Positions 4,671 to 55,208 are shown, counted from the stretch's first letter. The stretch is 64,000 nt of DNA from Candidatus Woesearchaeota archaeon (GCA_018696595.1 JABHQW010000008.1:38484-102483); one strand, 5' to 3'. The notes: generated by a model from the sequence alone, not told the origin. Numbers and translations are program-made.

Positions 4671-4716
4671 GAGACGTGATAGTTGTTAAAAATTAAAGTT
4701 AATTGAGGTTAAAAAA

Positions 4717-39743: not shown

Positions 39744-41393
39744 TTATTTTTTATCTCTTTTTGCTATTATGGCATTAATTCTTTTATAATCTTCAAATGT
39801 ATGAATTTCAGTCCAACCTTTATTGACTTCTAAACAATCAACTTTGTGTCCTTGCTCAATTAACTTTTGAATAGCATAAGTAAAATCTTTGTTTTTCATT
39901 TCTTCATAATTCTCAGAATAGATTTGTTTTAGTAACTCGGTACCTTGTCCCGAAAACATTGCCATGCCAATAAATTCAAAATTTGCTTCATCCGGATCTA
40001 AATGTGAACCAATTTTAACAATTTCATTATGGTCATCAAAAGTTAATGATCTTTCACCTAGATAGGGGTCTCTTTTACCAACAACAAGATCTAACTTTTT
40101 ATTATACCGATTAGCATTTAATTTATATGAAGAATCAATCACTAAAGTAATATCTCCTTCTTTCTTAATTAATCTTTCAACAATGTCCTTATCAAAAAGA
40201 AGGTCAGAATAAAGCATTAGAATTTTTCCGTTCATTTTATCTTTAGCAGTCATGATTGAATGTAACGCTTTGGTGTTTTCATATTCAGAGTTATGATACT
40301 TATTAATTGCAGGAAGATTAATTTTTTCCCCACAATAGCCAGTAACTACACTAATATCATTAATCTTAAGAGAATTAAGAATCTCAATATTTCTTTGAAT
40401 AATTGGTTTGCCATTAATATCAAGTAAACAAAGAGGGGTATCTTTTAGGTATACATCATTGAGCTTAGGATCTATTGGCTTACCAGCGGCAGGAATAATA
40501 ACTTTAATCTCTTCAAAGTCTCCTTTAACATATTTCGTTTCATGGTCCTTCATTTCAAAAGTACCTTGAAGTTCAAACAATTCTTTTACTGGAATCAATT
40601 TTTCTGAGATTGTATGAATCCCTCCTTGTTCTTTTATTTCCTTAAGTGTTTCTTTAATAGAAGTTACTGCAGATCTAATCACATGATTAGCATAAATAAC
40701 CATCTTAACTTTAGGGTGATTTTTTATTTTATCCTCAGTCAAAGTGTAATAATTTGTAGGAACAATGACGATTGGAATATCTTCTTTCCACTCTTCAATA
40801 AACCTAATAACTTCTGCAGGATCACTTTGTTTAGAATGAATCATAATTGCATCTGCCCCTGCCTCAACATAAGCTTTGGCTCTTTTTTTTGCTTCTTCAT
40901 GACCCCATCCAGCAATGAGGGCTTCAACACGAGCAATAACCATGAAATCATCATCTCGTTGAGCATTTTTAGCAGCCATAATCTTTCCAGAGAACTCAGC
41001 AATAGATGCTAATTCTTGTTTCCCTCCAACTAAAAGGCTATTCTGTTTTGGAAACTTTTTATCTTCCATAATTACTCCTGCAATTCCGGCTGCCTCAAAT
41101 TTTTGAACCATCCGAATTACGTTAATAGAATTACCATAACCTTGATCAACATCAACAACAACGGGAATCGTAACTGCATCATTCATAGAAACTGCCGCAT
41201 CTAAATAGTCTGTCATAGTGAGAATATTAGCATCTGGAACAGCATGTGACGCCGAAACTTCTAAAGAAGAAGCCCAAACTCCTTCAAAGCCTGCTTTCTC
41301 GATTAATTTCGCAGTCAAACCATTATGAGCCCCAACTAAACGAAAGAACCCAGGAAGATTAAATAATTCACGCAATTTTTTTGATTTTTCCAT
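39744..41393 (-). CDS. pepM: phosphoenolpyruvate phosphomutase (PepM) fused to a C-terminal LicC/MobA-like nucleotidyltransferase domain
   Basis: N-terminal ~290 aa: FRLVGAHNGLTAKLIEKAGFEGVWASS, DVDQGYGN and the PepM-diagnostic EDKKFPKQNS (EDKx5NS, aa 110-119, nt 41037-41066). The C-terminal half is IIPAAGKP...LLDINGKPII...VVTGY...GWTEIHTFEDY. SD AGGTGA lies 5 nt upstream. Confidence 0.85.
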   Translation of the reverse strand: MEKSKKLRELFNLPGFFRLVGAHNGLTAKLIEKAGFEGVWASSLEVSASHAVPDANILTMTDYLDAAVSMNDAVTIPVVVDVDQGYGNSINVIRMVQKFEAAGIAGVIMEDKKFPKQNSLLVGGKQELASIAEFSGKIMAAKNAQRDDDFMVIARVEALIAGWGHEEAKKRAKAYVEAGADAIMIHSKQSDPAEVIRFIEEWKEDIPIVIVPTNYYTLTEDKIKNHPKVKMVIYANHVIRSAVTSIKETLKEIKEQGGIHTISEKLIPVKELFELQGTFEMKDHETKYVKGDFEEIKVIIPAAGKPIDPKLNDVYLKDTPLCLLDINGKPIIQRNIEILNSLKINDISVVTGYCGEKINLPAINKYHNSEYENTKALHSIMTAKDKMNGKILMLYSDLLFDKDIVERLIKKEGDITLVIDSSYKLNANRYNKKLDLVVGKRDPYLGERSLTFDDHNEIVKIGSHLDPDEANFEFIGMAMFSGQGTELLKQIYSENYEEMKNKDFTYAIQKLIEQGHKVDCLEVNKGWTEIHTFEDYKRINAIIAKRDKK

Positions 41394-42620: not shown

Positions 42621-42703
42621 TGCACAAGAATTATAAATGAATTATAACCATTAACTACCTATTAATTTAAAAAAATTAACGAGAATGGATTAATTAATTG
42701 AAA

Positions 42704-43825
42704 ATGATAAACCCAGCACAATTTTACGAACTTTTACAAACTAAAGAACTAACTATGTTTACCGGGGTGCCTGATTCTACCTTAAAACAATTATGTGCTT
42801 ACATCACAGATCATGTGCCTCCAGAAAGAAATATTATAACTGCAAATGAAGGTAATGCAATTGGTTTAGCAAGTGGGTATTACTTAAGCACAAACAACCC
42901 TGCCATCGTTTACATGCAAAATTCGGGATTGGGAAATTGTGTTAATCCCTTAACTTCTTTAACTGATGAAGATGTTTATTCTATTCCAATGTTATTGATT
43001 ATCGGCTGGAGAGGCGAACCAGGAAAAAAAGATGAACCGCAACATGTAAGAATGGGACAAATAACTCTGGAGATGTTGGATGTTCTAAAAATACCTTATT
43101 CTATTATTCCTGATACAATTGAAGAAACAGAAATAGAGGTTAGTAAAGCTGTTGTTCATATGAACAATCATAAAACACCTTATGCTCTTGTTGTAAGAAA
43201 AGGAACTTTCACGGAACATAAATTACAAAATACAAAAACAACAAATTATCCCCTTAATCGCGAACAAGCAATAAGGACCCTTGTTCCGTTATTAGAAGAA
43301 GATGCTATTATAGTTTCAACCACTGGAAAAACATCAAGAGAATTATTTGAATTTAGAGAAGAACTTCAACAAGGACACGAAAGAGATTTCTTAACTGTTG
43401 GTTCAATGGGCCATTCATCTTCAATTACTTTAGGAGTCGCCTTACAAAAACCAAAAAAGAAAGTATACTGTTTTGATGGTGATGGTGCGCTAATAATGCA
43501 CATGGGTGCCTTATCAACAATTGGCCAGTTACAACCAAAGAATCTGTGTCATATTGTATTGAATAATTTTGCACATGATTCGGTCGGGGGACAACCAACT
43601 GCTGCAGACAATATTGATATTCCGCAAGTTGCTCAAGCTAACGGATATAAGAAAGTGTTCTCGGCTCAAAGCGAAGAAGAGATTAGAGCTAAAATAAAAG
43701 AAATCCAACAACTAGAAGGGCCAACATTATTAGAAATTAAAGTAAACAAAGGGGCAAGAAAAGAATTAGGAAGACCCACTACAACACCAAAAGAGAACAA
43801 ATCTGAATTGATGAAGTATTTATAA
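42704..43825 (+). CDS. ppd: phosphonopyruvate decarboxylase (TPP-dependent; Ppd/Fom2/AepY family)
   Basis: ~373 aa single-chain TPP enzyme: FTGVPDSTLKQLCAYI, EGNAIGLASGYYLSTNNPAIVYMQNSGLGN, TPP motif FDGDGALIMHMGALSTIG...NN. It lies next to pepM. I chose ATG 42704; the track start at 42698 is TTG. Confidence 0.8.
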   Translation: MINPAQFYELLQTKELTMFTGVPDSTLKQLCAYITDHVPPERNIITANEGNAIGLASGYYLSTNNPAIVYMQNSGLGNCVNPLTSLTDEDVYSIPMLLIIGWRGEPGKKDEPQHVRMGQITLEMLDVLKIPYSIIPDTIEETEIEVSKAVVHMNNHKTPYALVVRKGTFTEHKLQNTKTTNYPLNREQAIRTLVPLLEEDAIIVSTTGKTSRELFEFREELQQGHERDFLTVGSMGHSSSITLGVALQKPKKKVYCFDGDGALIMHMGALSTIGQLQPKNLCHIVLNNFAHDSVGGQPTAADNIDIPQVAQANGYKKVFSAQSEEEIRAKIKEIQQLEGPTLLEIKVNKGARKELGRPTTTPKENKSELMKYL

Positions 43826-43907: not shown

Positions 43908-44969
43908 TTAATTATCTTCCCAATCCTTTTTTGGAATTCTCCAGTCTTTTCCATAAACAAATTCGAGATGTTTTTCAGGATTAAAAGGGGCATGATACTC
44001 TTTCCCATAAAAATCTATTTTTCCTAATTGACTATAATGTTCTCTTAAAAACTTCCACTCAATGATTCTACAATCTTTTAGTGAAACTTTTTCCCATAAT
44101 AATTGAATTAATTTCCCTTTATAAGGAATAAAAGTAAATATAAATATCACTACATTAAAAAAACCTTTTAAAAACCAAGAAGGGATTCTTGAATCTTGTA
44201 GCTCTCCACCATGCCTTCTTATTAAAGTAATAAATGTATTTATTATCATCCTTCGCTTTTTTATGCCATCTCTAGCTGCCAACAACAACCAACCCAATAA
44301 CGCAGTAATTTTTGTTTTTTTCTTTAAACTTTTTGTTTGAAAAAAAACTAAATAGTCCTTTTTTTTCCTAAGAATATGAATATTAATATGTAATGAACCT
44401 TTCTTTCTAAATGTAATCATTCCACGATCAGCAAACCAACATACTTCAAACCCCTGATCTGATAGCTTATTAAGAGCATCTAGTAATGTATTTATATTAA
44501 TTTCTTCCCTCACCATACTAGTATCAATATCACAATCCCAAGATAATATTTTCTTATCCCTAACTGCTCCAAGAAGGGTACCACAATCTAATCTCCAAAT
44601 TAAGTTATGTTCTTCAAATACCTCTTTTATTTCTTCTAACGCTTTCACTGTTCCTTTTTCATGTGGGTTTTTTTCTTTTGAAGAAATTGTGGGCGTGTTC
44701 TTTCTAGAAATAACTTTTTCATTTAACTCCATTTGTATTTTTTGATTAATACTTTTATCTTTTATATTTCCAATTTTAGTTAAGTGTTTCCTAAAAGGAC
44801 CGAGATTTGTCCTAAATATTCTACAATTTAACCAAAGGTATCCTTTCTCTTTTGTAATAGTATACACATTTTCTCTGAAAGGGTCTAATGGTGGTGTAAA
44901 CCGAGTTGTTTTTACTATATCGCCAACTTTAAAAATTGTTTTTGTCATTTTCTTTATTATTCTCCACAT
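43908..44969 (-). CDS. LicD-family phosphotransferase with ~100-aa N-terminal extension
   Basis: LicD core LDCGTLLGAVRDKKILSWDCDIDTSM (DxD). A TATA-like ATTATAATTA lies 22-31 nt upstream. Confidence 0.7.
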   Translation of the reverse strand: MWRIIKKMTKTIFKVGDIVKTTRFTPPLDPFRENVYTITKEKGYLWLNCRIFRTNLGPFRKHLTKIGNIKDKSINQKIQMELNEKVISRKNTPTISSKEKNPHEKGTVKALEEIKEVFEEHNLIWRLDCGTLLGAVRDKKILSWDCDIDTSMVREEININTLLDALNKLSDQGFEVCWFADRGMITFRKKGSLHINIHILRKKKDYLVFFQTKSLKKKTKITALLGWLLLAARDGIKKRRMIINTFITLIRRHGGELQDSRIPSWFLKGFFNVVIFIFTFIPYKGKLIQLLWEKVSLKDCRIIEWKFLREHYSQLGKIDFYGKEYHAPFNPEKHLEFVYGKDWRIPKKDWEDN

Positions 44970-45019: not shown

Positions 45020-46549
45020 TTATGTTTGTTTTATCCCCACAAAACCTATTCTTTCACCATACATCGCTTTTGCCCGAATTGGATCTCTTTTAAGTAACAA
45101 ATGATTAAGATCAAAGTTTTGTTTTTCTACCCAACATTCAAACTCTCCTGCACTTTTAAAACCGTCAACAGTTATATGGGAGTTTCTGAAAGTACCACTT
45201 TTTTTTACTTCTCCATCCCACCATAAATTTTCTTTTGTAACTTGTCGATAAAGCTCTGTTCCAGGAAGGGGATTCACAATGGCAACAGAATAACTATCTG
45301 CCCCACAACTAGCAGCAAACTTAATTGTTTCTTCCCTTTCTTCTCTTGTTTCGCCTGGAAAACCAACCATCCAAAAAGTATGAGTATACAACCCGGCATC
45401 AATAGCAGTTCTAATTGTTTGAGGAATAAGTTCTAAATCCAACCTTTTATTGGCCTGATCTAAAGTTTTTTGCACACCACTTTCACATGCTAAAGTGACT
45501 TGATAGCAACCCGAATCTGCCATTTTTTCAAATAATTCCTGATGCTTACCCTGGTGATAATCTACTCTGATTCCATTCGGCGGGCACCAAGGAATATTCA
45601 AGGGTTTCATTAGATCACATAATTCATTTAATTTTGAAAGGTCAGATGTTAGAGTATCGTCTTCAAACTGAACTTCTTGAATACCATGATTTTCAATAGC
45701 GTCTTTTATTTCTGCAACAATTTCTTGAGGGCTTCTCCACCTAACTTTTCTTCCCCAAGTAACGGGAGTAGTACAATAAGTACAACGTTCCGGACATCCC
45801 CTAGAAGCCATAACATTCAATACCCTTTTTCTTTCAGTATCTGCATTATGAAATAAACCAACATTAAAGTACCCTTCCATATTCATAAGATGCCTAGCGG
45901 GAGAAGGTAAATCTTGGAGATTAAGTGTTTCTCCAGATAAAGGATTAATTACTATTTTACCTGCTTCGGATGAAGAATTTTCTCTATGAACTAAACCGGG
46001 AATCAAACTATAATCACCACCAGTTAATAAACAATCAATTAAATGTGCAAATCTCAGTTCACTTTCTCCAACCATTGCAAAATCAATATTTTGATTATCC
46101 ATGAAAGCCAATTCTTTTTCTAGATTTGATTCTTGGTTTCTAGGATCATTGGCATAAAGATAATCTGACACACTATTAGTGATATAGTTTCCACCTACAA
46201 TAACTGGGAGATCTCTTTTAACCTCTTTTGTAATCCGAGCTAAGGCATGAGAGCCTTGAACAAGATTAGAAAAGAGTACAGAAATCCCAACAATGTCTGG
46301 ATTAATTTCTGAGATATATTTAGCAATATCAGTATCTGATTCTCCCACAATAACTATTCCCTTCTCCCCGGAGGATTCAGAATGGTGATAGCCTTCTAAT
46401 GCAGTATCACGAACATAAACGTCGTGGCCTTCTTTTTCAAGAACTGCCGCCAAATAACCCAAACCCAAAGGAGGTTGTATTCGGTTAACCCCTCCTTCAA
46501 TGCCCCTGATATTTGGAGAGAATAACAAAATCCTACTTTTATTTACCAT
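45020..46549 (-). CDS. cobalamin(B12)-binding radical SAM enzyme (class B methylase-like)
   Basis: N-terminal B12-binding Rossmann-like domain (ILLFSPN...PLGLGYLAAVLEKEGHDVYVRD...DIVGISV). Radical SAM cluster motif ASRGCPERCTYC (CxxxCxxC). Confidence 0.85.
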   Translation of the reverse strand: MVNKSRILLFSPNIRGIEGGVNRIQPPLGLGYLAAVLEKEGHDVYVRDTALEGYHHSESSGEKGIVIVGESDTDIAKYISEINPDIVGISVLFSNLVQGSHALARITKEVKRDLPVIVGGNYITNSVSDYLYANDPRNQESNLEKELAFMDNQNIDFAMVGESELRFAHLIDCLLTGGDYSLIPGLVHRENSSSEAGKIVINPLSGETLNLQDLPSPARHLMNMEGYFNVGLFHNADTERKRVLNVMASRGCPERCTYCTTPVTWGRKVRWRSPQEIVAEIKDAIENHGIQEVQFEDDTLTSDLSKLNELCDLMKPLNIPWCPPNGIRVDYHQGKHQELFEKMADSGCYQVTLACESGVQKTLDQANKRLDLELIPQTIRTAIDAGLYTHTFWMVGFPGETREEREETIKFAASCGADSYSVAIVNPLPGTELYRQVTKENLWWDGEVKKSGTFRNSHITVDGFKSAGEFECWVEKQNFDLNHLLLKRDPIRAKAMYGERIGFVGIKQT

Positions 46550-46754: not shown

Positions 46755-49700
46755 ATGTCATTAGCAAAACAGAGGGAATATTTTGGAATTGGAAAAATAG
46801 ATAAGTTAAAAGAAATATTAGCATTAGAACGAGCAAAAAAAGTATTTTTAGTAACCACAAAAAGATCATTCTCATCTTCTAGTGCTAAAGAAAGAATTGC
46901 CCCCCAATTAAAAGATTACCAGGTCACTATTTTTAACGAATTCTCCCAAAACCCAAAACTAGAAGATATTAAAAGAGGAATAAAGATATTTAAAGAAAGT
47001 AATTCCGATTTAATTATTGCTATTGGTGGAGGGAGTGTAATTGATATGGCAAAATCAATTAATGTCTTATCTGCCCAAACTTTAGCACCTGAAATATACA
47101 TCATTGAAAAAGTTCCGTTTGAAAAGAAAGGTTGCCCATTAGTTGCAATACCAACCACATCAGGAACAGGAAGTGAAGCGACACATTTCGCGGTTTTGTA
47201 TATTAACAAATCCAAATATTCGTTAGCTCACGAAGAATATATTCTTCCAAATTATGCCATTATCGATCCCGAATTGACATTTAGTTTACCTAAAGCCATT
47301 ACTGCTACAACTGGTATTGATGTTTTAAGCCAAAGCATAGAATCATATTGGTCGGTAAACTCAACTGAAGAAGCAAAGGCTTACGCCCAAGAAGCAATAA
47401 AGTTAGTTTTAAAAGATCTAAAAACTGCGGTTAATTACCCTTGCAAAGAAGCCAGAGTAGCAATGGCCAAAGCGGCCAATTTATCTGGAAAAGCAATTAA
47501 CATTGCAAAATCCACGGCCCCACACGCGATATCATACCCTTTTACTTCATACTTTAATATTCCTCACGGCCATGCAACAGGATTAACCCTTGGCCCAATA
47601 CTAGTTTTTAATGCCAATATTAATGAAACTAATTGTACAGACCCAAGAGGGGCAGAATATGTTAGATTAACTATTAATAAAATAATTTCTTTTTTTGGGT
47701 CTACTTGTGCCGCTGATACTTGTAAAAAAATTCAATATTTAATGCGAGATATTGGACTTGAAACAAACATTAAAAGATTAGGGATTGATTCTGAAGAAAA
47801 AGTAAATTTAATAATTGAAAAAGGGTTCAACCCCGATCGAATTAAAAATAACCCCAAAAGAATAGAGCCAGAACAGTTAAGAAAAATTTTAAATGAAATT
47901 AGCCAAGAAACAGAAATTAAACCAGAAAAAATGGAAACAGTTTATATTGGCATGGTTGCTGATAGCATCCACCACGGCCACATAAATATTATCAGTGAAG
48001 CAAGAAAATTGGGAGATGTAATTGTGGGATTAGTTACTGATGATGCGGCCCAAAGCTATAAAAGAAGACCAATCTTAAGCTTTAGTGATAGAGCAAGAAT
48101 TATTAAAAATATCAAAGGAGTAACAAAAATTGTTCCCCAAAACACATTGGATTATGTCCCAAATATAGAGAAATATAAACCATCAATAATCATGCATGGG
48201 GATGATTGGAAAAAAGGATCCCAAAGAATTATTAGAGAAAGAGCATTAAATGCAGTTGAAAAGTATGGGGGGAGAATTATAGACCTCCCTTATACTAAAG
48301 GCATTTCAACTACAGAATTTATAGAAAAAGTTAAATCTTGTTCATTAAATAAAAAAAACACAACCCAAGCAATAATTCTGGCAGCAGGGATGGGTACAAG
48401 ATTAAGACCACTTACTGAAGAGACACCAAAATGTTTAATTAAAGTGAACAATAAAACACTATTAGAATATTCACTTGATTGTCTTAAAGAAAATGGAATC
48501 CAAGAGGTAATTATTGTTATTGGTTATCGCGGAGAATTAATTAAACAAAAAATAGGTAATGATTATCACGGCTTAAAAGTAGCATACATTGAAAATTTAC
48601 GTTTTTCCGAGACTGGAAGTATGTATTCTTTGTCACTTGCTAAAAAAGAGATTAAAAATGACATCCTGGTTTTAGAATCTGATCTGTTATATGAATCGTC
48701 TGCTATTAATACAATATTAAATTCAAATCATAGAAATACTATGGTCATCTCTAAATTACTTCATTCTGGAGATGATGTTTACATTTGTACAAATGAAAAA
48801 GAAGAAATTATTAATCTTGGGAAAGAAATATCAGAAGAAGAGAAAAAAAGAGCTAAAGGAGCAATGATCGGAATTTCAAAATATTCTGGTGAATTTCTTG
48901 CAGAACTTTTTAAGAAAGCAGAAGAAGATTATGAAAAGGGGGAAGTCAATTACCATTATGAAGAGTGTGTATTTGCCACCAGTCATGAGAATAACCCGGT
49001 TAAAGCTATCTTTTGTCCTGAACTTCATTGGATTGAAATTGACAATGAAAATGATTTAAAGAAAGCAACAGAAGTAACATACCCCAAGATCAGAAATTTA
49101 GAGAATAATAAGCAAAAAAGTTCAAGTATAAAAAGAAATATCCTTTTAAATCCTGGACCAGCTACTACTACTGACACCGTAAAATATGCACAAATTGTTC
49201 CCGACATTTGTCCAAGAGAAAAAGAATTTGGGGATGTAATGAAATACATTAATAATAATTTAATTGAAATTGCTGGGGGAAATACGGAGGAAGATGTCTG
49301 CGTATTATTTGGTGGCTCTGGAACGGCGGCCATGGATGCTACAATTAATTCTGTTGTACCACCTGATAAAAAAATCTTAGTGATTAATAATGGAGCATAT
49401 GGGGAAAGAATTGCTAAGATTGCTCGAGCGTATAGTCTTGGTTGTATTGAACTAAAGTTTGAATGGGATGCTCTACCAGATCTAAAAATAATTGAGGACC
49501 AACTAAACGAAAACCCTGAAATTTCTTGCGTTGCTATGATTCATCATGAAACAACAACGGGACTATTAAATCAGGTTAAAGAAATTGGAGAATTAGTTAA
49601 AAATCACAATAAAGTGTTCATAGTTGACACAATATCTAGTTTCGCAGGGATCCCAATGAATATTAAAGAATTTAATATTGATTTTATGATGTCTACTTCA

Positions 49701-50249
49701 AACAAGTGTATTCAAGGAATGGCAGGGGTTAGTTTTGTTATTTGTAGTAAGAAACAACTTGAAAGAATTAAAGAATACCCACGCCGATCTTTTTATTTAA
49801 GCTTATATGACCAATACGAATATTTCATTAAAAATTACCAGATGAGGTTTACCCCCCCAGTACAAACATTATATGCTCTTAAAAAAGCAATTGCAGAATT
49901 TTTAGAGGAAGGATATGAAAACCGAGTTGCAAGATATACTCAGAGTTGGAAAGTTCTAAGAGCAGGAGTTCAAGAATTAGGATTTAAGATATTAACTCAA
50001 CCTGAAAATGAGTCCAACCTTTTAATTACTTTACTTAATCCAGAACACCCTAATTTTAATTTTAATATTCTTCATGACAAATTATTTGAAAAAGGATTTA
50101 CTATTTATCCTGGAAAAGTGGGAAAAGTTAATTCATTTCGGTTATCTAATATGGGTGCCATTGATGAAAAGGATATTAGCGAATTCTTAGTAACATTTGA
50201 AGGTGTATTAAATGAAATGGGAACAATTGGACAGCAAAAACCAACATAA
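46755..50249 (+). CDS. four-domain fusion: Fe-dependent alcohol dehydrogenase (phosphonoacetaldehyde reductase-like) + HxGH cytidylyltransferase + LicC/PntC-like nucleotidyltransferase + 2-aminoethylphosphonate:pyruvate aminotransferase (PhnW-like)
   Basis: One uninterrupted 1164-aa ORF. aa 1-~385: Fe-ADH (GGGSVIDMAKS, PTTSGTGSE, HAISYP...PHGHATG). aa ~393-525 (from nt 47931): VYIGMVADSIHHGHINII (HxGH). aa ~539-780 (from nt 48369): AIILAAGMGTRLRPLTEETPKCLIKV. aa ~793-1164 (from nt 49131): RNILLNPGPATTTDTV...MSTSNKCIQGMAG (class V aminotransferase with PLP Lys). Confidence 0.85.
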   Translation: MSLAKQREYFGIGKIDKLKEILALERAKKVFLVTTKRSFSSSSAKERIAPQLKDYQVTIFNEFSQNPKLEDIKRGIKIFKESNSDLIIAIGGGSVIDMAKSINVLSAQTLAPEIYIIEKVPFEKKGCPLVAIPTTSGTGSEATHFAVLYINKSKYSLAHEEYILPNYAIIDPELTFSLPKAITATTGIDVLSQSIESYWSVNSTEEAKAYAQEAIKLVLKDLKTAVNYPCKEARVAMAKAANLSGKAINIAKSTAPHAISYPFTSYFNIPHGHATGLTLGPILVFNANINETNCTDPRGAEYVRLTINKIISFFGSTCAADTCKKIQYLMRDIGLETNIKRLGIDSEEKVNLIIEKGFNPDRIKNNPKRIEPEQLRKILNEISQETEIKPEKMETVYIGMVADSIHHGHINIISEARKLGDVIVGLVTDDAAQSYKRRPILSFSDRARIIKNIKGVTKIVPQNTLDYVPNIEKYKPSIIMHGDDWKKGSQRIIRERALNAVEKYGGRIIDLPYTKGISTTEFIEKVKSCSLNKKNTTQAIILAAGMGTRLRPLTEETPKCLIKVNNKTLLEYSLDCLKENGIQEVIIVIGYRGELIKQKIGNDYHGLKVAYIENLRFSETGSMYSLSLAKKEIKNDILVLESDLLYESSAINTILNSNHRNTMVISKLLHSGDDVYICTNEKEEIINLGKEISEEEKKRAKGAMIGISKYSGEFLAELFKKAEEDYEKGEVNYHYEECVFATSHENNPVKAIFCPELHWIEIDNENDLKKATEVTYPKIRNLENNKQKSSSIKRNILLNPGPATTTDTVKYAQIVPDICPREKEFGDVMKYINNNLIEIAGGNTEEDVCVLFGGSGTAAMDATINSVVPPDKKILVINNGAYGERIAKIARAYSLGCIELKFEWDALPDLKIIEDQLNENPEISCVAMIHHETTTGLLNQVKEIGELVKNHNKVFIVDTISSFAGIPMNIKEFNIDFMMSTSNKCIQGMAGVSFVICSKKQLERIKEYPRRSFYLSLYDQYEYFIKNYQMRFTPPVQTLYALKKAIAEFLEEGYENRVARYTQSWKVLRAGVQELGFKILTQPENESNLLITLLNPEHPNFNFNILHDKLFEKGFTIYPGKVGKVNSFRLSNMGAIDEKDISEFLVTFEGVLNEMGTIGQQKPT

Positions 50250-50273: not shown

Positions 50274-51020
50274 ATGATTACTAGAAATCAACAGAAAGAA
50301 AAATATGAAACTGATTTAAGATACCATTCAGATTCGGACAACTTAAATCAAACGTTTGATAACCGCTATTCATTACGTAATAATTGGGGATTATATTTTG
50401 AATTAATAAAATTTAAAGAGATGGTTAAGCTCTTAAATAAAAGTAAAGTTAGGTTAAAGAATAAAAAAATCTTAGATTTAGGTTGTCACCGTGGCTTTAC
50501 TTCTAACCTTTTAGCACAATTAAAAGGATCTTCTGAAAACATTTATGGGGCAGATTTTATCAATTCTTTTGTTGAGCAAGCCCAAGAAATTAATCCTGGT
50601 GTTAAATTCTTTCAACATGATGTTTATAATGAGCTACCTTTTGAGAACTCTTATTTTGATTTAGTTACATTAATTTACTTGTTTAATGCCCTTCCCTCCC
50701 AAGACCAACAAGAAGTTGTTAAGAATATTTCCAAAAAAATAAAAGTAGGAGGTCATATCTTATTCTTTGACTTGTTTGAATCCAGAATGTCACGAGTAAC
50801 ACAAAGATTAGCTCACCTTAACAAGAGATATACTCCTTTGCCACATTTTAATGATAAAATTATTAAAAAATTGTTCCCGGACTTTAAGATAATCCAATCT
50901 AAAAAAATAATTAATTTGTTAACTTATCGAACAATTGGGTTTTCGTATGGTTTAGCAGAATTTTTAGATAAAATGTTACCATGCGAGTATTATATCACAT
51001 TATTAAGAAAAATAAAATAA
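50274..51020 (+). CDS. class I SAM-dependent methyltransferase
   Basis: Motif I ILDLGCHRGFTS and post-I GADF. Confidence 0.65.
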   Translation: MITRNQQKEKYETDLRYHSDSDNLNQTFDNRYSLRNNWGLYFELIKFKEMVKLLNKSKVRLKNKKILDLGCHRGFTSNLLAQLKGSSENIYGADFINSFVEQAQEINPGVKFFQHDVYNELPFENSYFDLVTLIYLFNALPSQDQQEVVKNISKKIKVGGHILFFDLFESRMSRVTQRLAHLNKRYTPLPHFNDKIIKKLFPDFKIIQSKKIINLLTYRTIGFSYGLAEFLDKMLPCEYYITLLRKIK

Positions 51021-51021
51021 A

Positions 51022-51672
51022 ATGGGCGAAAAAAGAATAAAAGAAAATGTGGAATTTTGGGATTGGGTATTCAGATTTGTATCTAAACCAGTCACACACT
51101 TTTTTGTTAAGTTCACTAAGATAACCCCTAACCAAATCACCATATTAAGTTTTATTTTAGGCTTATTAGCCGCGGGACTAATTTTAATGGGAGATTATAA
51201 TTACTTAGTTGTTGCAGGCGTCTTAGTATTAATTTTCATGGTCTTAGATAATGTTGACGGGGAGATTGCTAGAATAACTAAGAAAACAAGTAAGTTAGGC
51301 CATTGGTTAGATGGAGTTGTGGGTTTTATTATAAATGAAGCATTAATTTTAGCCATGGCATTAAGTATTGGTAGCCCATTATCTCTATCCGTTGGATTAT
51401 TAACAATGATTGCTTTTCCAATGCAATATTTATTAATATTCTTTTACAAAGCAGAGATTGTTAAAGAGAATGCCCCAATTACAATTGGATCTGGAAGCCT
51501 AATCAATAAAATAAAGTATTTATATGGTTCAACCTTCTTTCAATTTACAGTTGCGATAGGTTGCTTTTTCAATAAGCTACTATGGGTTTTAATCTTCTTT
51601 GCAGTCATCGGAAACTTATTCTGGATGGGGACATTGTTTGTCCAATATATCAACTTAAAACGAAAGTTTTAA
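51022..51672 (+). CDS. CDP-alcohol phosphotransferase family membrane protein (variant motif)
   Basis: DNVDGEIARITKKTSKLGHWLDGVVG = DxxDGxxARx8GxxxDxxxG. 5-6 TM helices. Starts 2 nt after the upstream stop. Confidence 0.7.
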   Translation: MGEKRIKENVEFWDWVFRFVSKPVTHFFVKFTKITPNQITILSFILGLLAAGLILMGDYNYLVVAGVLVLIFMVLDNVDGEIARITKKTSKLGHWLDGVVGFIINEALILAMALSIGSPLSLSVGLLTMIAFPMQYLLIFFYKAEIVKENAPITIGSGSLINKIKYLYGSTFFQFTVAIGCFFNKLLWVLIFFAVIGNLFWMGTLFVQYINLKRKF

Positions 51673-51697: not shown

Positions 51698-52687
51698 ATG
51701 GTAAACAATTTGTTGAGTCATTATAAAGTCTCCCCAAAATTAGAAGTGAAATTAACAGCAAGTTTTCCTTTATCTCGGAGTACAGGAATTCAACAAGCTT
51801 ATAATTCTCAAGAACCAGATTGGGACTTATTATTTACGCATTGGGGTAAAGAGATTATATATATTAATCCTAATATCCCCCAATTACAGTGGAGAGAGAT
51901 ATGCTTAGCAACCCATTGGAATCAATTTGAAGAAGCAGTTAAAAAAAATGATAAATTAGTACTAGATGGGAGAAAAATCGATGGTTTTTCAATTCAAGCT
52001 CAACGTAAAGGGGCTTTAAAAGATTTAAGTTTTTTATCTACTGCAAATTATTGTTTTACTCTTACCGATGATGACCAACATATTTTAATGGGAGTTAGGG
52101 GAGGAAGTGATAATGTAGGACAAGCAGTAACAATGCCATTGGGGGTTGTTTCTTATCCTTCAGAACCTGACCCTAATAATTTAGATCCAATTACGGCTTC
52201 AGTTTACTCCGAAGCAAATGAAGAAGGGGGCATTTTACCAAATGAATATTCTTCATTAAATTGTATTGGAACCTTGCGACAAGAGCAATGTTCTACACCA
52301 GTAAATAATCTTATTTGGATTGGAAGATTAAAGATTACAGGTGAAGAAATTATAGAGAGACACAAAGTAGCCATTGAATTATATAATAAATTTGGAAATG
52401 ATTCTGAGAACATATTAAAGGCACGAATGGAGTTGAGAAAAAGATTTTTATTTAATCCAAGATTTCCAAAAGATGCTTGGGAAAATTCAAGATTAAATTT
52501 ATTTTCTAATGATCCCGAGAAAATGGTTGCAGATCTCAGTTATTTAATTGACCAAGGAAAAGAAATTAAACATGGATTATATGGTGCTTTAGCCTTATAT
52601 ATTTTAAACCAACATGGAGATAAATATTATAGTCAATTAATGAATATACCACAATTTAAAGAAAAGATTCATGATCAAAAATTATAG
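51698..52687 (+). CDS. hypothetical protein, weak Nudix-box-like segment
   Basis: 329-aa ORF. SEANEEGGI (nt 52208-52234) partly matches the Nudix core REx2EExGU, but the upstream Gx5E spacing does not fit. Confidence 0.4.
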   Translation: MVNNLLSHYKVSPKLEVKLTASFPLSRSTGIQQAYNSQEPDWDLLFTHWGKEIIYINPNIPQLQWREICLATHWNQFEEAVKKNDKLVLDGRKIDGFSIQAQRKGALKDLSFLSTANYCFTLTDDDQHILMGVRGGSDNVGQAVTMPLGVVSYPSEPDPNNLDPITASVYSEANEEGGILPNEYSSLNCIGTLRQEQCSTPVNNLIWIGRLKITGEEIIERHKVAIELYNKFGNDSENILKARMELRKRFLFNPRFPKDAWENSRLNLFSNDPEKMVADLSYLIDQGKEIKHGLYGALALYILNQHGDKYYSQLMNIPQFKEKIHDQKL

Positions 52688-52774: not shown

Positions 52775-53479
52775 ATGAAAGCATTAATTACTGCGGCCGG
52801 AATGGGTACGAGACTGGGTAATATTACTAAAGACACAAACAAGTGTATCTTAAATGTCGGAAACAAACCATTACTTCTCCATTCAGTCGAGATTCTCAAG
52901 AATGTAGGAATTGATGACATATATGTAATTATTGGCCATCACGGAGAGAAAATTAAACAACTTCTTGGAGATAAAGTTAATTATATCTATAATCCTGATT
53001 ATGCCACTACTAGTATTCTAGGTTCTATTGTTCTTGCTAAAGAACATTTATTCCAGTCAGAATTTGTTTTTCTAACCGGAGATTCTTTGCTCCATCCCGA
53101 ACTCATCAAGGGCTTATTAGAACCAAGTCAAGATGTTCTTGTTTCTATTGAGCTTAAAAAATGTAATGAAGAAGATATGAAAGTTGTTTTAGAGAACCAT
53201 AATATTAAAGAAATAAGTAAAACAATATCTTTGGATCAGGCCCAGGGAGAATATACTAGCCTTACTAGATTCCCAAAAGAGTCTTCCACTGTTTTTTTTA
53301 ATGAAGTTGAAAAAGCAATAAACAATCAGAATTGTAAAACTTATGTTGCTGACATCCTTTTAAATTTACAAAATTTAGGGTTTAATCTTAAACCAATATA
53401 TACCAATAAACCAAGAATTGAAATTGATTTCTTAGAAGACTTAGAAAAAGCCCAAGCATTGTACAAACAATATTTTTGA
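52775..53479 (+). CDS. LicC/PntC-like (MobA-like) nucleotidyltransferase
   Basis: MKALITAAGMGTRLGNITKDTNKCIL...VIIGHHGEKIKQ. TATA ATTTATATAA lies 23 nt upstream. Confidence 0.75.
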   Translation: MKALITAAGMGTRLGNITKDTNKCILNVGNKPLLLHSVEILKNVGIDDIYVIIGHHGEKIKQLLGDKVNYIYNPDYATTSILGSIVLAKEHLFQSEFVFLTGDSLLHPELIKGLLEPSQDVLVSIELKKCNEEDMKVVLENHNIKEISKTISLDQAQGEYTSLTRFPKESSTVFFNEVEKAINNQNCKTYVADILLNLQNLGFNLKPIYTNKPRIEIDFLEDLEKAQALYKQYF

Positions 53480-53549: not shown

Positions 53550-54278
53550 TTAAAATTTCTTTTCTTCAACACCTAACCGATCACAAATTTGACTAATACT
53601 AATTACTTTCAAATCATATTGATCTGCTAAGCCCCTAAGTTGTGCAGGGGAAGCCATTTTGTAAGGGTCATCAGGATGTAATATTTCCATATCAACTACC
53701 ACTGGAGGATTGATTCCAGCTAACTTCATCAATTCAATTCCCGATTCTGTATGACCTTGTCTAGCATAAAGTCCCTGAGGATTACCTGCAATTGGAACAA
53801 GATGTCCTGGTCTAACCAAGTCTTCTGGGGTTGATGCTCTTTCTTCTAATTCTCCGGAAACTAATCGTGAATAATCAAAAGGCCTACCGTTCTCTCCAGT
53901 TTGATAAGGAACAAATCGACCGCCAAGAATATTCGCAGTTTGTGCTCTTTCTGCAGCAGAACAACCAGAATGACCATACAATGTATCGGTAGTTAAACGA
54001 AAATTAGTTTGACTACTTTCTTGGTTATCACTTGCATCTACTTGACCAGGCAACCCAAACTGAGTTGCATAATCTTCAGGCATAAAAATAGCAATAAATG
54101 CCCCTTTAGCATTATCTAAAACAAATTTCATTGTTGTGGGTGTTATTTTAGCAGCAGAAACAAGAAAATCTCCTTCTCCTTCCCTACCTGGATTATCCAT
54201 TAAAATAATTGGTTTGCCTTGTTGGATATCAATTAAAGCATCATCCAAACTATCTAATTTTACGCCATAATTATTCAT
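53550..54278 (-). CDS. ribB: 3,4-dihydroxy-2-butanone-4-phosphate synthase
   Basis: IDIQQGKPIILMDNPGREGEGDFLVSAAKITP and RPGHLVPI, RQGHTE motifs. I chose ATG 54278 with SD GAGGT 8 nt upstream; the track start at 54332 is TTG. Confidence 0.8.
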   Translation of the reverse strand: MNNYGVKLDSLDDALIDIQQGKPIILMDNPGREGEGDFLVSAAKITPTTMKFVLDNAKGAFIAIFMPEDYATQFGLPGQVDASDNQESSQTNFRLTTDTLYGHSGCSAAERAQTANILGGRFVPYQTGENGRPFDYSRLVSGELEERASTPEDLVRPGHLVPIAGNPQGLYARQGHTESGIELMKLAGINPPVVVDMEILHPDDPYKMASPAQLRGLADQYDLKVISISQICDRLGVEEKKF

Positions 54279-54446
54279 TTTATTTACCTCTTCACATTTT
54301 TTAAAAATGTTAAATTTATAAAGTAATCTCAAATTCTGATATATAAGTTTTATGCACTACAAATCAGACTACGAAAACCTAAATGATTTAAAACCCACAT
54401 TCCAAAATAGAGATTAATTTAACAGAAAGACAAGAGATCCAAAAAA

Positions 54447-55208
54447 ATGAAAACCAAATATCCATTTAAAACAATAACAAAAACTGAAGAGCAACTTCAT
54501 TCTTGGACTTATGTATTTCTACTTAAGTATCCAACAATCTTATTAACCTGGCTATTTGCAAATTTTACTAACTTCTCTCCAAACTTAGTTTCTTTCCTAG
54601 GGCTGATTCCTTCTTTTATTAGTGCTTATTTTTATGTTAATGGGAACTTACTATTTGGTGCTCTTTTTTATCTCTTGGCTTGGCTTCTTGATGGAGTTGA
54701 TGGAAGATTAGCAAGAGTCAAAAGCCTAGGGTCAAAGTACGGGGCATTTTATGACAATTATGTTGGCCAAATTGGTTTTATTATAATGATCATGGGATTT
54801 TTTTATGGTATAGCTAGAATAAAACAAAATTCTTTATGGTTGTTGTTGGGCATTCTAGTTTACTTTCTGGTTACTTTCCGCAGCTTGATTGCTTTAAAAG
54901 TTAAAACCTTGATGGGAAATGAATATCGTGTCAACTTAGATGAAGTAAATGTTGAAGAAGCAAGTATTAAAGAAACAAAAGGATTATGGGGATTAGCTGT
55001 AAGATTACAAAATAAACTGAACCAAAAAGGTTTAGTTGAACCATTTAACCTAATTGATATGATTGTATTGATTTTTATTATTGGCCCAATTGCGGAATTA
55101 ATTTTATCTGGTTCTCTAATATATGTGATAATATTTGCATTGATTATGATTATAATAAAAGAAATCATCTGGTTTCTCTATTATAGAAAGATTTTAAAAG
55201 ATAGGTGA
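54447..55208 (+). CDS. CDP-alcohol phosphotransferase family membrane protein (variant motif, paralog of 51022-51672)
   Basis: DGVDGRLARVKSLGSKYGAFYDNYVG = DxxDGxxARx8GxxxDxxxG. Polytopic. Confidence 0.7.
   Translation: MKTKYPFKTITKTEEQLHSWTYVFLLKYPTILLTWLFANFTNFSPNLVSFLGLIPSFISAYFYVNGNLLFGALFYLLAWLLDGVDGRLARVKSLGSKYGAFYDNYVGQIGFIIMIMGFFYGIARIKQNSLWLLLGILVYFLVTFRSLIALKVKTLMGNEYRVNLDEVNVEEASIKETKGLWGLAVRLQNKLNQKGLVEPFNLIDMIVLIFIIGPIAELILSGSLIYVIIFALIMIIIKEIIWFLYYRKILKDR

What the first reader, a model, noticed from the sequence alone, without database searches (positions are those of the whole stretch)
46755..50249. 1164-aa four-domain fusion that appears to encode two parallel 'make and activate' phosphonate branches
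One uninterrupted ORF links four domains in this order: Fe-ADH (aa 1-385), HxGH cytidylyltransferase (HHGH, from nt 47931), LicC-like nucleotidyltransferase (GMGTRL, from nt 48369) and PhnW-like transaminase (from nt 49131). Both the ADH and the transaminase would use the same substrate, phosphonoacetaldehyde. Each sits beside its own nucleotidyltransferase.

This suggests [ADH + CT] -> CMP-HEP and [NT + PhnW] -> CMP-AEP on one polypeptide. Two-domain fusions (LicC-like + AEP transaminase, PepM + nucleotidyltransferase) are known from bacterial AEP pathways. I am not aware of this four-domain arrangement.
Basis: partly seen in the sequence, partly recalled or inferred. Interest (0 to 1): 0.8.

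Follow-up and report, generated by a model that had tools for sequence, protein, structure and literature searches.

The report
Four-enzyme phosphonate fusion protein, archaeal
A tiny DPANN archaeon encodes one 1164-residue protein that joins four known phosphonate-pathway enzymes; it most likely turns one aldehyde intermediate into two different CMP-activated phosphonates for decorating the cell surface, and no other protein in about 1.8 billion representatives has this combination.

Summary
The identical protein is called on at least 24 independently assembled contigs, so it is not an assembly artefact.

The C-terminal half aligns end to end with the characterised Treponema denticola PntC-AEPT (6PD1, E 1e-141). 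It keeps both AEP-binding glutamates and passes the PhnW-AepZ cutoff.

The CT is about 48% identical to the Fom1 HEP cytidylyltransferase (5X3D). It groups with CTs physically fused to ADHs. The ADH's relatives are very often fused to phosphonopyruvate decarboxylase.

All catalytic motifs are intact. An exhaustive search of 1.84 billion representatives found no other four-domain protein, and clusters holding both an ADH and an AEPT are themselves rare (1 of 97 loci).

The AEP half is solid. The HEP half is inferred, because equally similar CTs also occur in ADH-free AEP clusters.

A divergently transcribed B12-radical SAM enzyme is 32% identical to Fom3. It may methylate one of the CMP-phosphonates.

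This is a new variant of known kinds, of moderate interest.

The parts
46755..50249 (+). Complete 1164-aa four-domain ORF (ADH-CT-NT-AT), stop codon included
   Evidence: The identical protein is found on at least 24 independent contigs. The architecture is unique.
46755..47909 (+). Domain 1, aa 1-385: group III Fe-dependent alcohol dehydrogenase, inferred phosphonoacetaldehyde reductase (PnAA -> 2-hydroxyethylphosphonate)
   Evidence: - Pfam PF00465 plus PF25137.
- 33.5% identical to FomC of the S. wedmorensis fosfomycin cluster.
- Homologues at 37-52% identity are fused to Ppd (91 proteins), to CT or to PepM.
- Metal site D189/Q193/H257/H271. Q193 is the majority state among Ppd-fused ADHs and is shared with 6JKO.
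47931..48338 (+). Domain 2, aa 393-528: HxGH (PF01467) cytidylyltransferase, Fom1-CyTase-like; inferred CTP:HEP cytidylyltransferase
   Evidence: - 5X3D E 1e-43, about 48% identity.
- H406xGH409 and G516ISTT are intact.
- Groups with CT-ADH fusions.
- A402, L465 and D466 match the ADH-context state.
48366..49112 (+). Domain 3, aa 538-786: LicC-like nucleotidyltransferase = PntC (CTP:AEP cytidylyltransferase)
   Evidence: - Best solved match is 6PD1 Tde1415.
- G545xGTRL, LESD and both AEP-amine glutamates (E641, E736) are conserved.
- Sits in the NT-AT clade.
49131..50225 (+). Domain 4, aa 793-1157: class-V aminotransferase = 2-aminoethylphosphonate transaminase (AEPT/PhnW-AepZ)
   Evidence: - TIGR03301 430 bits (cutoff 360.8) and NF010006 354.5 bits (cutoff 296).
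- PhnW structures 9KK8 and 1M32 at E 1e-74 and 6.5e-72.
- K984, D958 and R1129 are conserved.
45020..46549 (-). Divergently transcribed B12-binding radical SAM enzyme (509 aa), Fom3-like; candidate C-methyltransferase of a CMP-phosphonate
   Evidence: - PF02310 plus PF04055.
- 32% identity over 511 aa to Fom3, E 1e-73.
- Same best NCBIfam model as Fom3.
- 4 of 4 sampled homologues lie in phosphonate clusters.
39744..41393 (-). PEP mutase fused to a LicC-like NT (549 aa); makes phosphonopyruvate
   Evidence: - TIGR02320 319.8 bits against a cutoff of 319.55.
- EDKxxxxxNS motif present in the translation.
- The NT part has Y and T at the Tde E104 and E196 columns.
42698..43825 (+). Phosphonopyruvate decarboxylase (Ppd); makes phosphonoacetaldehyde, the shared substrate of the ADH and AT domains
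   Evidence: TIGR03297 507 bits against a cutoff of 312.5. 46% identical to Fom2.
43908..44969 (-). LicD-family phosphotransferase; candidate transferase of a phosphonyl group from CMP-phosphonate to a glycan
   Evidence: PF04991 and NF045866. The role is inferred by analogy with the Lic/Pnt logic of Rice et al. 2019.
50274..51020 (+). Class I SAM methyltransferase, 24 nt downstream of the fusion (same operon)
   Evidence: Substrate unknown.
51022..51672 (+). CDP-alcohol phosphatidyltransferase family membrane protein; candidate CMP-phosphonate:lipid/alcohol transferase
   Evidence: PF01066. The same family lies next to the radical SAM homologues in L011, L012 and L013.
52775..53479 (+). Stand-alone LicC-like NT (234 aa), the fourth nucleotidyltransferase domain of the cluster
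   Evidence: It has T and A at the AEP-glutamate columns. Substrate unknown.
54447..55208 (+). Second CDP-alcohol phosphatidyltransferase family protein

Best explanation
The ORF is a genuine single polypeptide of a Woesearchaeota/Nanoarchaeota (DPANN) archaeon. It joins two bifunctional phosphonate modules.

**Supply (shown by family membership).** The neighbouring PepM-NT and Ppd convert PEP to phosphonopyruvate and then to phosphonoacetaldehyde (PnAA).

**AEP module, C-terminal (strong homology to a characterised enzyme).** The AEPT domain transaminates PnAA to 2-aminoethylphosphonate. The adjoining PntC domain condenses it with CTP to CMP-AEP, exactly as in T. denticola Tde1415.

**HEP module, N-terminal (inferred).** The Fe-ADH domain reduces the same PnAA to 2-hydroxyethylphosphonate. 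The Fom1-type HxGH cytidylyltransferase converts it to CMP-HEP, as FomC and the Fom1 CyTase domain do in fosfomycin biosynthesis.

**Effect of the fusion (inferred).** It fixes the four activities at 1:1:1:1 and splits one reactive aldehyde into two CMP-activated head groups.

**Downstream (inferred from context).** The co-encoded LicD and two CDP-alcohol phosphotransferases, set among glycosyltransferases, a flippase and AglB, move the phosphonyl groups onto surface glycans and/or lipids. The Fom3-like B12-radical SAM and the SAM methyltransferase may methylate one of the intermediates first.
For: **Real and unique**
-.

**AEP half**
- 6PD1 matches end to end at E 1.4e-141.
- TIGR03301 and NF010006 both score above their cutoffs.
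- Tde E104 and E196 are conserved, and these are the AEP-amine contacts.
- PLP Lys, Asp and Arg are conserved.
- Tde1415 has demonstrated AEP cytidylyltransferase and aminotransferase activity.

**HEP half**
- 5X3D (Fom1 CyTase) matches at E 1e-43, with HxGH and GISTT intact.
- The window CT clusters with CT-ADH and CT-PepM-ADH fusions.
- 46 of 47 genomic loci with Fom1-like CTs carry CT-PepM|Ppd|ADH and none carries an AEPT.
- The window has the ADH-context residues A402, L465 and D466. The best-matching class is ADH-linked in 898 of 1000 column bootstraps.
- ADH homologues are fused to Ppd (91), CT (3) or CT-PepM (1).
- The window ADH scores higher than authentic FomC on TIGR03405.

**Supply and consumers**
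-.

**Fosfomycin-pathway chemistry**
-.
Against: - No activity has been measured.
- CT domains of similar identity (mostly 43-51%) occur fused to PepM in 24 of 50 AEP-only clusters with no ADH. The PF01467 clade is therefore not intrinsically HEP-specific.
- The grouping with CT-ADH fusions comes from a neighbour-joining tree with only moderate resampling support.
- The ADH passes no equivalog cutoff and has Gln instead of the classical second metal-binding His.
- The cluster contains four nucleotidyltransferase domains, two of them with unassigned substrates. The one-NT-per-branch picture may therefore be too simple.
- Substrate channelling and the benefit of the fusion are pure inference.
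Confidence: 0.6

Rival explanations
1. **Extension: the HEP branch continues in fosfomycin style.** The divergent B12-radical SAM acts like Fom3 and C-methylates CMP-HEP to CMP-2-hydroxypropylphosphonate. HPP rather than HEP is then the head group that gets transferred. No epoxidase or FomD is present, so no fosfomycin is made.
For: - The radical SAM shares a 205-bp divergent promoter region with the fusion.
- It is 32% identical to Fom3 over 511 aa, E 1e-73.
- Fom3 and the window enzyme share the same best NCBIfam model, both below the cutoff.
- The window has homologues of Fom1-CT, Fom1-PepM, Fom2, FomC and Fom3, but not of Fom4, FomD or FomA/B.
- L013 (Nanoarchaeota) and L011 pair this radical SAM family with an ADH.
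- 9 of 47 CT-PepM|Ppd|ADH loci carry a homologue.
- Fom3 acts on the CMP-activated substrate.
Against: - 32% identity does not fix the substrate.
- Homologues at 54% identity (L012) and weaker ones (L149, L151, L157) sit in AT-only clusters without an ADH. The family may also, or instead, act on AEP-type substrates.
- NCBIfam's nearest named relative is a P-methyltransferase.
Confidence: 0.3
2. **The CT is not an HEP enzyme.** As in Treponema-type clusters, where CT-PepM co-occurs with NT-AT and no ADH, the HxGH CT activates AEP (redundantly) or some other phosph(on)ate. HEP made by the ADH domain is either activated by one of the other NT domains (PepM-fused or stand-alone) or is not activated at all.
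For: - 24 of 50 NT-AT loci have a CT-PepM with no ADH, and those CTs are 34-51% (mostly 43-51%) identical to the window CT.
- P0133 is a direct CT-AT fusion.
- All 29 ADH-fused LicC-like NTs form their own clade, with His at the Tde-E104 column. LicC-type enzymes can therefore also be ADH partners.
- The window has two further NTs of unknown specificity.
Against: - The window CT is adjacent to the ADH in the polypeptide.
- Its nearest neighbours are CT-ADH fusions.
- It carries the ADH-context residues at all three non-conservative discriminating columns.
- It is only 34% identical to the CT of the CT-AT fusion.
- Neither of the window's other NTs has the His signature of ADH-linked NTs.
Confidence: 0.15
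3. **Serial rather than parallel use.** The transaminase runs in the catabolic direction (AEP -> PnAA) and the ADH then reduces PnAA. The protein thus interconverts AEP and HEP pools instead of splitting de novo PnAA.
For: AEP transaminases are reversible, and the TIGR03301 PhnW-AepZ model covers both catabolic and biosynthetic enzymes. Tde1415 was assayed in the AEP -> PnAA direction.
Against: - A full de novo supply (PepM with the EDKxxxxxNS motif, plus Ppd) is encoded alongside.
- No phosphonatase, PhnX/PhnA or AEP transporter was seen among the annotated neighbours.
- The AT is fused to an AEP-activating PntC, which argues for AEP as a product.
Confidence: 0.05
4. **Artefact.** The long ORF results from a mis-assembly or sequencing error that joins two or more adjacent genes.
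For: Domain boundaries have short linkers, and an in-frame Met (M393) precedes the CT. This is what one would see after loss of a stop codon.
Against: - The identical 1164-aa product is called on at least 24 contigs from different projects and different assemblers (ENA, JGI, Logan, NCBI).
- Composition is uniform.
- All four domains have intact catalytic motifs.
Confidence: 0.02

Closest known systems
Tde1415 (Treponema denticola PntC-AEPT bifunctional enzyme; PDB 6PD1/6PD2; Rice et al. 2019, PMC6697681)
   Same: - Residues 538-1156 align end to end (E 1.4e-141).
- Same domain order (LicC-like NT, then class-V AEP transaminase).
- Same nucleotide-binding motif, the same two AEP-amine glutamates, and the same PLP lysine.
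- Same genomic logic, next to PepM and Ppd.
   Different: - The window protein carries 537 extra N-terminal residues (ADH plus HxGH CT).
- NT-domain identity to Tde1415 is only about 29%.
- The host is an archaeon.
- The partner PepM is fused to an NT rather than to a CT.
Fom1 cytidylyltransferase domain plus FomC (Streptomyces fosfomycin pathway; PDB 5X3D; Cho et al. 2017 as cited)
   Same: - The CT domain is about 48% identical to Fom1 CyTase, with HxGH and GISTT motifs.
- The ADH is 33.5% identical to FomC.
- Together they would perform the same two steps, PnAA -> HEP -> CMP-HEP.
- Homologues of Fom2 and Fom3 are also present.
   Different: - In Fom1 the CT is fused to the N-terminus of PEP mutase and FomC is separate. 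Here the CT is fused to the C-terminus of the ADH.
- There is no Fom4 epoxidase, FomD or FomA/B. The context is cell-surface glycosylation, not an antibiotic cluster.
CT-ADH (about 500 aa), CT-PepM-ADH (805 aa), NT-CT-ADH (about 750 aa) and Ppd-ADH (about 750 aa) fusions from metagenomes (uncharacterised)
   Same: They share the domain families, and the ADH is physically linked to phosphonate enzymes. The CT-ADH fusions are the window CT's nearest relatives (49-53%).
   Different: - Domain order is the opposite (CT before ADH).
- None contains an aminotransferase.
- The CTs of NT-CT-ADH fusions lack the GISTT motif, and their NTs carry His instead of the AEP-binding Glu.
Fom3 (B12-dependent radical SAM C-methyltransferase acting on CMP-HEP; PMC8158854). 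This applies to the neighbouring gene, not to the ORF itself.
   Same: B12-binding plus radical SAM architecture. 32% identity across the full length. Same best NCBIfam neighbour. Co-located with homologues of Fom1-CT, Fom2 and FomC.
   Different: It belongs to a large uncharacterised family (more than 1300 members) that also occurs in AEPT-only clusters. Its substrate has not been established.

Membership tests
PntC-AEPT bifunctional enzymes (Tde1415 type) | N-terminal LicC-like NT (PF12804/PF00483) directly followed by a class-V aminotransferase, collinear with Tde1415 | tested here: met
   phmmer against PDB 6PD1: query 538-1156 against chain 4-613, E 1.4e-141. Pfam order confirmed.
PntC-AEPT bifunctional enzymes (Tde1415 type) | Glu residues contacting the AEP amine (Tde E104, E196) and the GxGTRL nucleotide loop | tested here: met
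   E641 (in LESDL) and E736 are conserved. 24 of 26 NT-AT fusions have E at both columns. G545MGTRL is present.
PntC-AEPT bifunctional enzymes (Tde1415 type) | CTP:AEP cytidylyltransferase activity with preference over phosphocholine | not testable with these tools
   Requires an enzyme assay. Shown for Tde1415 and Ari1348 only.
2-aminoethylphosphonate transaminase (PhnW-AepZ, TIGR03301 / NF010006) | Score above the curated equivalog cutoff; PLP lysine, Asp and phosphonate-binding Arg | tested here: met
   TIGR03301 430.4 bits against 360.8. NF010006 354.5 against 296. K984, D958 and R1129 are conserved in 50-51 of 52 homologues. The narrower TIGR02326 model is not met (340.5 against 400.8).
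Fom1-type HEP cytidylyltransferase (PF01467 CyTase) | PF01467 fold with HxGH and the C-terminal (R)TxGISTT motif; close similarity to 5X3D | tested here: met
   PF01467 61.7 bits. 5X3D E 1.1e-43, about 48% identity. H406-H-G-H409 and G516ISTT present.
Fom1-type HEP cytidylyltransferase (PF01467 CyTase) | Fusion to the N-terminus of PEP mutase | tested here: not met
   Here the CT follows the ADH and precedes the NT. The window's PepM is fused to a LicC-like NT instead.
Fom1-type HEP cytidylyltransferase (PF01467 CyTase) | Association with a PnAA-reducing ADH rather than with an AEPT (proxy for HEP specificity) | tested here: inconclusive
   - For: the CT is fused to an ADH, its nearest neighbours are CT-ADH fusions, the ADH-context residues A402, L465 and D466 are present, and 898 of 1000 bootstraps pick an ADH-linked class.
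- Against: the same polypeptide also holds an AEPT, and AT-context CTs are about equally identical.
Phosphonoacetaldehyde reductase (FomC/PhpC-type group III Fe-ADH; NCBIfam TIGR03405 Phn_Fe-ADH) | Score above the TIGR03405 cutoff | tested here: not met
   176.7 bits against a cutoff of 423.7. Authentic FomC scores only 158.7, so this model does not define the functional class.
Phosphonoacetaldehyde reductase (FomC/PhpC-type group III Fe-ADH; NCBIfam TIGR03405 Phn_Fe-ADH) | Fe-ADH fold with a metal site, and physical or genomic linkage to Ppd/PepM | tested here: met
   - PF00465 plus PF25137.
- D189, H257 and H271 are invariant. Q193 is shared with 71 of 91 Ppd-ADH fusions and with 6JKO.
- 91 Ppd-ADH fusions lie among the closest homologues.
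- Ppd is 3 kb upstream.
Fom3-type B12 radical SAM C-methyltransferase (neighbouring gene 45020-46549) | B12-binding domain plus CxxxCxxC radical SAM core; full-length similarity to Fom3 | tested here: met
   PF02310 plus PF04055. CPERCTYC is in the translation. 32% identity over 511 aa, E 1e-73.
Fom3-type B12 radical SAM C-methyltransferase (neighbouring gene 45020-46549) | Substrate is CMP-HEP, methylated at C2 | not testable with these tools
   Context is mixed. Homologues occur with an ADH (L011, L013) and with an AT only (L012, L149, L151, L157).

The most novel reading that the evidence does not exclude
A DPANN archaeon uses this single protein as a two-output phosphonate head-group factory, and the adjacent Fom3-like B12-radical SAM extends one branch. 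The product would be CMP-2-hydroxypropylphosphonate (or a C-methylated CMP-AEP). That head group is then installed on lipids or glycans by the CDP-alcohol transferases or LicD. This would be the first non-antibiotic use of fosfomycin-type CMP-HEP methylation chemistry. It would also be the first evidence for a mixed AEP plus HEP/HPP phosphonate surface in archaea.
Probability: 0.25. Interest if true: 0.7.

Novelty: new variant of a known kind. Interest (0 to 1): 0.45.

Why it matters
- Every domain belongs to a known phosphonate-pathway family, and two- and three-domain fusions among them are common. What is new is the combination.
- It is the only protein found that carries both enzymes competing for phosphonoacetaldehyde, each with its own cytidylyltransferase.
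- Clusters with both branches are themselves very rare.
- If the inferred chemistry is right, the organism makes two CMP-activated phosphonates from one intermediate at a fixed enzyme ratio.
- That offers a compact, testable system for asking how flux is partitioned at the PnAA branch point.
- It also offers a way to test what substrates the HxGH-type and LicC-type cytidylyltransferases discriminate between. That question is unresolved, because many clusters carry both types.
- It adds phosphonate surface chemistry to the sparse biochemistry known for DPANN archaea.
- It flags a large uncharacterised Fom3-like radical SAM family embedded in phosphonate clusters.
- It does not overturn any concept.

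Tried and rejected
1. **Assigning the CT to HEP from similarity to Fom1 alone.** Rejected as insufficient. The reverse scan showed equally similar CTs in 24 of 50 AEP-only clusters. It was replaced by a joint tree and discriminating-column analysis. The first bootstrap script timed out.
2. **Using the TIGR03405 cutoff to judge the ADH.** Rejected, because authentic FomC fails it too.
3. **Reading Gln193 as a dead metal site.** Rejected. It is the majority state in Ppd-fused ADHs and is present in the active enzyme 6JKO.
4. **Taking the NCBIfam label 'P-methyltransferase' for the radical SAM at face value.** Not adopted. The score is far below the cutoff, Fom3 (a C-methyltransferase) hits the same model, and no other phosphinate-pathway families were detected among the neighbours.
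5. **Identifying ORF 51698-52687.** No homologues. The single-sequence AlphaFold model was unusable, pLDDT 35.6. A permissive Pfam scan found nothing. My Nudix-like impression from the sequence is unsupported.
6. **Rfam scan of the window.** Nothing found.
7. **Full-length structure prediction.** Not attempted, because inter-domain geometry would not be reliable.
8. **Context of the CT-PepM-ADH fusion P0012.** The contig was too short to be informative.

Full report
**1.

The window contains one uninterrupted ORF, 46755..50249 on the + strand, with an ATG start and 1164 codons. Pfam finds four domains in this order:
- Fe-ADH plus ADH_Fe_C, aa 9-381.
- CTP_transf_like, aa 403-524.
- NTP_transferase/NTP_transf_3, aa 539-657.
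- Aminotran_5, aa 821-1081.

HHGH is aa 406-409.

Base composition is uniform across the ORF and its flanks. The exact 1164-aa sequence is called on at least 24 contigs (37 index blocks) from ENA, JGI, Logan and NCBI assemblies. The longest is 496 kb, and the gene neighbourhood is always the same. A chimeric join or a frameshift artefact is therefore not credible.

**2. Host and setting**

The window encodes TFIIB, an archaeal AMP phosphorylase, an AglB-like oligosaccharyltransferase and PACE-CTERM-type S-layer-like proteins. The TFIIB and AMP phosphorylase fall in ≥90% identity clusters with proteins named from Woesearchaeota/Nanoarchaeota. The host is a low-GC DPANN archaeon. The ORF lies inside a long cell-surface glycosylation region with GT4/GT2 transferases, a flippase and epimerases.

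**3. The surrounding cluster**

Within ±8 kb the following genes are found:
- A PEP mutase fused to a LicC-like NT (39744-41393, -). It scores at the TIGR02320 cutoff and has the EDKxxxxxNS motif.
- Phosphonopyruvate decarboxylase (42698-43825, +; TIGR03297 at 507 bits).
- A LicD-family transferase (43908-44969, -).
- A B12-binding radical SAM enzyme (45020-46549, -), divergently transcribed from the fusion.

Downstream, apparently in one operon with gaps of 24, 1, 25 and 87 nt, come:
- A class I SAM methyltransferase.
- A CDP-alcohol phosphatidyltransferase.
- An ORFan of 329 aa.
- A stand-alone LicC-like NT.
- A second CDP-alcohol phosphatidyltransferase, a little further on.

The supply of phosphonoacetaldehyde (PnAA) and plausible consumers of CMP-phosphonates are therefore both encoded alongside.

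**4. The C-terminal half is a Tde1415-type PntC-AEPT**

- Residues 538-1156 align without a break to the 624-aa T. denticola enzyme (6PD1), E 1.4e-141.
- That protein was shown to make CMP-AEP and to have AEP transaminase activity.
- The AT domain exceeds the curated cutoffs of two AEP-transaminase equivalogs: TIGR03301 at 430 against 360.8, and NF010006 at 354.5 against 296.
- It keeps the PLP lysine (K984), D958 and R1129.
- Rice et al. identify Glu104 and Glu196 of Tde-PntC as the contacts of the AEP amine. Both are conserved here as E641 and E736.

In an alignment of 64 NT domains, those fused to aminotransferases carry E or D at the first of these positions. All 29 NTs fused to ADHs carry His and form a separate clade. 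The window's fusion NT sits in the aminotransferase-linked clade. This half is assigned with high confidence.

**5. The N-terminal half**

*CT domain*
- Its best solved match is the Fom1 cytidylyltransferase domain (5X3D), E 1e-43, about 48% identity. Fom1 CyTase converts HEP to CMP-HEP.
- HxGH and the C-terminal GISTT motif are intact.

*ADH domain*
- It is a group III Fe-ADH with D189, H257 and H271 invariant.
- Gln193 replaces the classical His. Gln is the majority state among Ppd-fused ADHs (71 of 91) and is shared with the best solved match, 6JKO.
- The domain passes no NCBIfam equivalog. However, authentic FomC from the S. wedmorensis cluster (L015) scores lower on the 'Phn_Fe-ADH' model than the window domain does: 158.7 against 176.7 bits.
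- Among the closest homologues, 91 are fused to phosphonopyruvate decarboxylase. Others are fused to CT, CT-PepM or NT. This is strong Rosetta-stone evidence that the ADH family acts on PnAA.

**6. How safe is 'CT = HEP'?**

I ran two opposite scans of GTDB species genomes.

*Scan with the Fom1 CyTase sequence.* Of the 47 loci of at least 15 kb, 46 had the conserved arrangement CT-PepM | Ppd | Fe-ADH, and none had an AEPT.

*Scan with an NT-AT profile.* Of the 50 loci of at least 15 kb, 24 were CT-PepM | Ppd | NT-AT with no ADH. Their CTs are 34-51% (mostly 43-51%) identical to the window CT, about the same as Fom1.

Similarity alone therefore does not decide the matter.

*Joint neighbour-joining tree.* The CT-PepM sequences split cleanly into an ADH-context clade and an AT-context clade. 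The window CT falls outside both, together with CTs that are physically fused to ADHs (P0147 and P0180, with P0124 nearby).

*Discriminating columns.* Nine columns discriminate the two context clades.
- Six are conservative I/L/V/M swaps.
- At the three non-conservative ones the window has the ADH-context residue: A402 not G, L465 not W, and D466 not S.
- Over 1000 column resamplings the best match to the window CT was ADH-linked 898 times.

I read this as moderate support for HEP specificity, not proof.

**7. Uniqueness**

- phmmer of the full protein against 1.84 billion cluster representatives returned no protein covering all four domains. The top hits were NT-AT fusions (617 aa, 52%), CT-ADH fusions (512 aa, 52%) and single-domain proteins.
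- The word-indexed search gave the same result.
- The query's own 90% cluster contains one full-length sequence.
- Of the 272 proteins retrieved, the architectures were:

| Architecture | Count |
|---|---|
| ADH | 93 |
| Ppd-ADH | 91 |
| NT-AT | 26 |
| NT-CT-ADH | 25 |
| AT | 20 |
| AT-NT | 4 |
| CT-ADH | 3 |
| NT-ADH | 2 |
| NT-ADH-LicD | 2 |
| CT-PepM-ADH | 1 |
| CT-AT | 1 |
| NT | 1 |
| ADH-CT-NT-AT (the window) | 1 |

- The ADH-before-CT order was also not seen elsewhere.
- The closest relatives of the NT-AT half (68-71%, in two MAGs labelled Methanosarcinales) are ordinary two-domain proteins following PepM-NT and Ppd, with no ADH or CT nearby.
- Even unfused, clusters holding both an ADH and an AEPT are rare: 0 of 47 and 1 of 50 loci.

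**8. The neighbouring radical SAM**

- It has B12-binding and radical SAM domains.
- It belongs to a family of more than 1300 uncharacterised proteins of about 505 aa.
- All four homologues whose contexts I examined lie in phosphonate clusters. Two are with an ADH (L011 and L013; L013 has CT-PepM, Ppd, NT, ADH, rSAM and a CDP-alcohol transferase). One is with an AT only (L012). One is with CT-PepM and Ppd (L014).
- Against the authentic fosfomycin cluster, the window has homologues of Fom1-CT (48%), Fom1-PepM (37%), Fom2 (46%), FomC (33.5%) and Fom3 (32% over 511 aa, E 1e-73). It has none of Fom4, FomD or FomA/B.
- Fom3 and the window enzyme share the same best NCBIfam model, both below the cutoff.
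- Fom3 methylates CMP-HEP at C2.

A Fom3-like methylation of CMP-HEP is therefore an attractive extension. The AT-only contexts (also L149, L151 and L157) mean the substrate could instead be on the AEP side.

**9. Most likely mechanism**

- PepM-NT and Ppd make PnAA.
- The AT domain converts part of it to AEP, and the NT (PntC) domain makes CMP-AEP.
- The ADH domain converts the rest to HEP, and the CT makes CMP-HEP.
- LicD and the CDP-alcohol transferases then move the phosphonyl groups to glycans and/or lipids, possibly after methylation.

Shown by sequence evidence: the family identities, intact motifs, collinearity with Tde1415, and the genomic associations. Inferred: substrate specificities of the ADH and CT, directionality, the acceptor molecules, and any kinetic advantage of the fusion.

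**10. Verdict**

The AEP branch is solid and the HEP branch is probable. In kind, this is a new variant: a unique combination of known modules in a pathway where domain shuffling is rampant. It is a neat and experimentally tractable object, but not a conceptual surprise. Interest 0.45.

Noticed in passing
Proteins P0001-P0039, P0050, P0051, P0066, P0076, P0148 (alignment): LicC-like NT domains fused to Fe-ADHs (NT-CT-ADH, NT-ADH, NT-ADH-LicD; 29 of 29) form their own clade. They carry His at the position of the AEP-amine-binding Glu104 of Tde-PntC. This may mark an HEP-specific (or otherwise non-AEP) subfamily of PntC.
   Followed up: partly
NT-CT-ADH fusions, e.g. P0001, P0002, P0016: In all 25 tri-domain NT-CT-ADH proteins the CT domain lacks the C-terminal (R)TxGISTT motif, and the Pfam match stops at about 102 of 133. 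This suggests a degenerate CT whose function may have passed to the fused LicC-like NT.
   Followed up: partly
Loci L015-L094 versus L107-L171: PepM-fused HxGH cytidylyltransferases split cleanly by context, ADH versus AEPT. The diagnostic residues are L-D (ADH context) against W-S (AT context) at window-equivalent positions 465-466, and A against G at 402. These are candidate specificity determinants not described in the papers I read.
   Followed up: partly
window 51698-52687 (+): A 329-aa ORF inside the operon, between the CDP-alcohol transferase and the stand-alone NT. It has no detectable homologues outside its own 90% cluster, no Pfam or NCBIfam hit, and an unusable single-sequence structure model.
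   Followed up: yes
window 45020-46549 (-) and P0273-P0391: There is a large family (more than 1300 hits, about 505 aa) of uncharacterised B12-radical SAM enzymes, about 32% identical to Fom3. It is found in marine, sediment and DPANN genomes. All four examined contexts were phosphonate clusters, often next to a CDP-alcohol transferase and a SAM methyltransferase.
   Followed up: partly
window 39744-41393 (-) and 52775-53479 (+): The cluster holds four nucleotidyltransferase domains. The PepM-fused NT (Y and T) and the stand-alone NT (T and A) have neither the AEP-type Glu pair nor the ADH-type His at the substrate columns. Their substrates are unassigned.
   Followed up: partly
window 32155-35532 (+): A 1125-aa protein combines an oligosaccharyltransferase-like region (weak PglB/AglB match, aa 335-755) with a C-terminal parvulin/PrsA-type peptidyl-prolyl isomerase domain (aa 1024-1123). 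This is an unusual pairing.
   Followed up: no
window 37688-39709 (-): A 673-aa protein with two tandem NAD-dependent epimerase/dehydratase domains (the family list is repeated), directly adjacent to the PepM-NT gene.
   Followed up: no
window 53550-54332 (-): A RibB-like 3,4-dihydroxy-2-butanone-4-phosphate synthase sits on the opposite strand in the middle of the phosphonate/glycosylation operon. The NCBIfam match is split into two stretches, which suggests an insertion.
   Followed up: no
PDB 6JKO: The best solved match of the ADH domain is deposited as a 'methanol dehydrogenase'. It shares the unusual D-x-x-x-Q metal-site motif (DVLSQ.IE) that typifies the Ppd-fused phosphonate ADHs. Its physiological substrate may be worth a second look.
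   Followed up: no
window 3159-8973 (+): Two large secreted or S-layer-like proteins (503 and 1418 aa) give weak PACE-CTERM-type matches. They are possible acceptors of the surface modifications encoded downstream.
   Followed up: no
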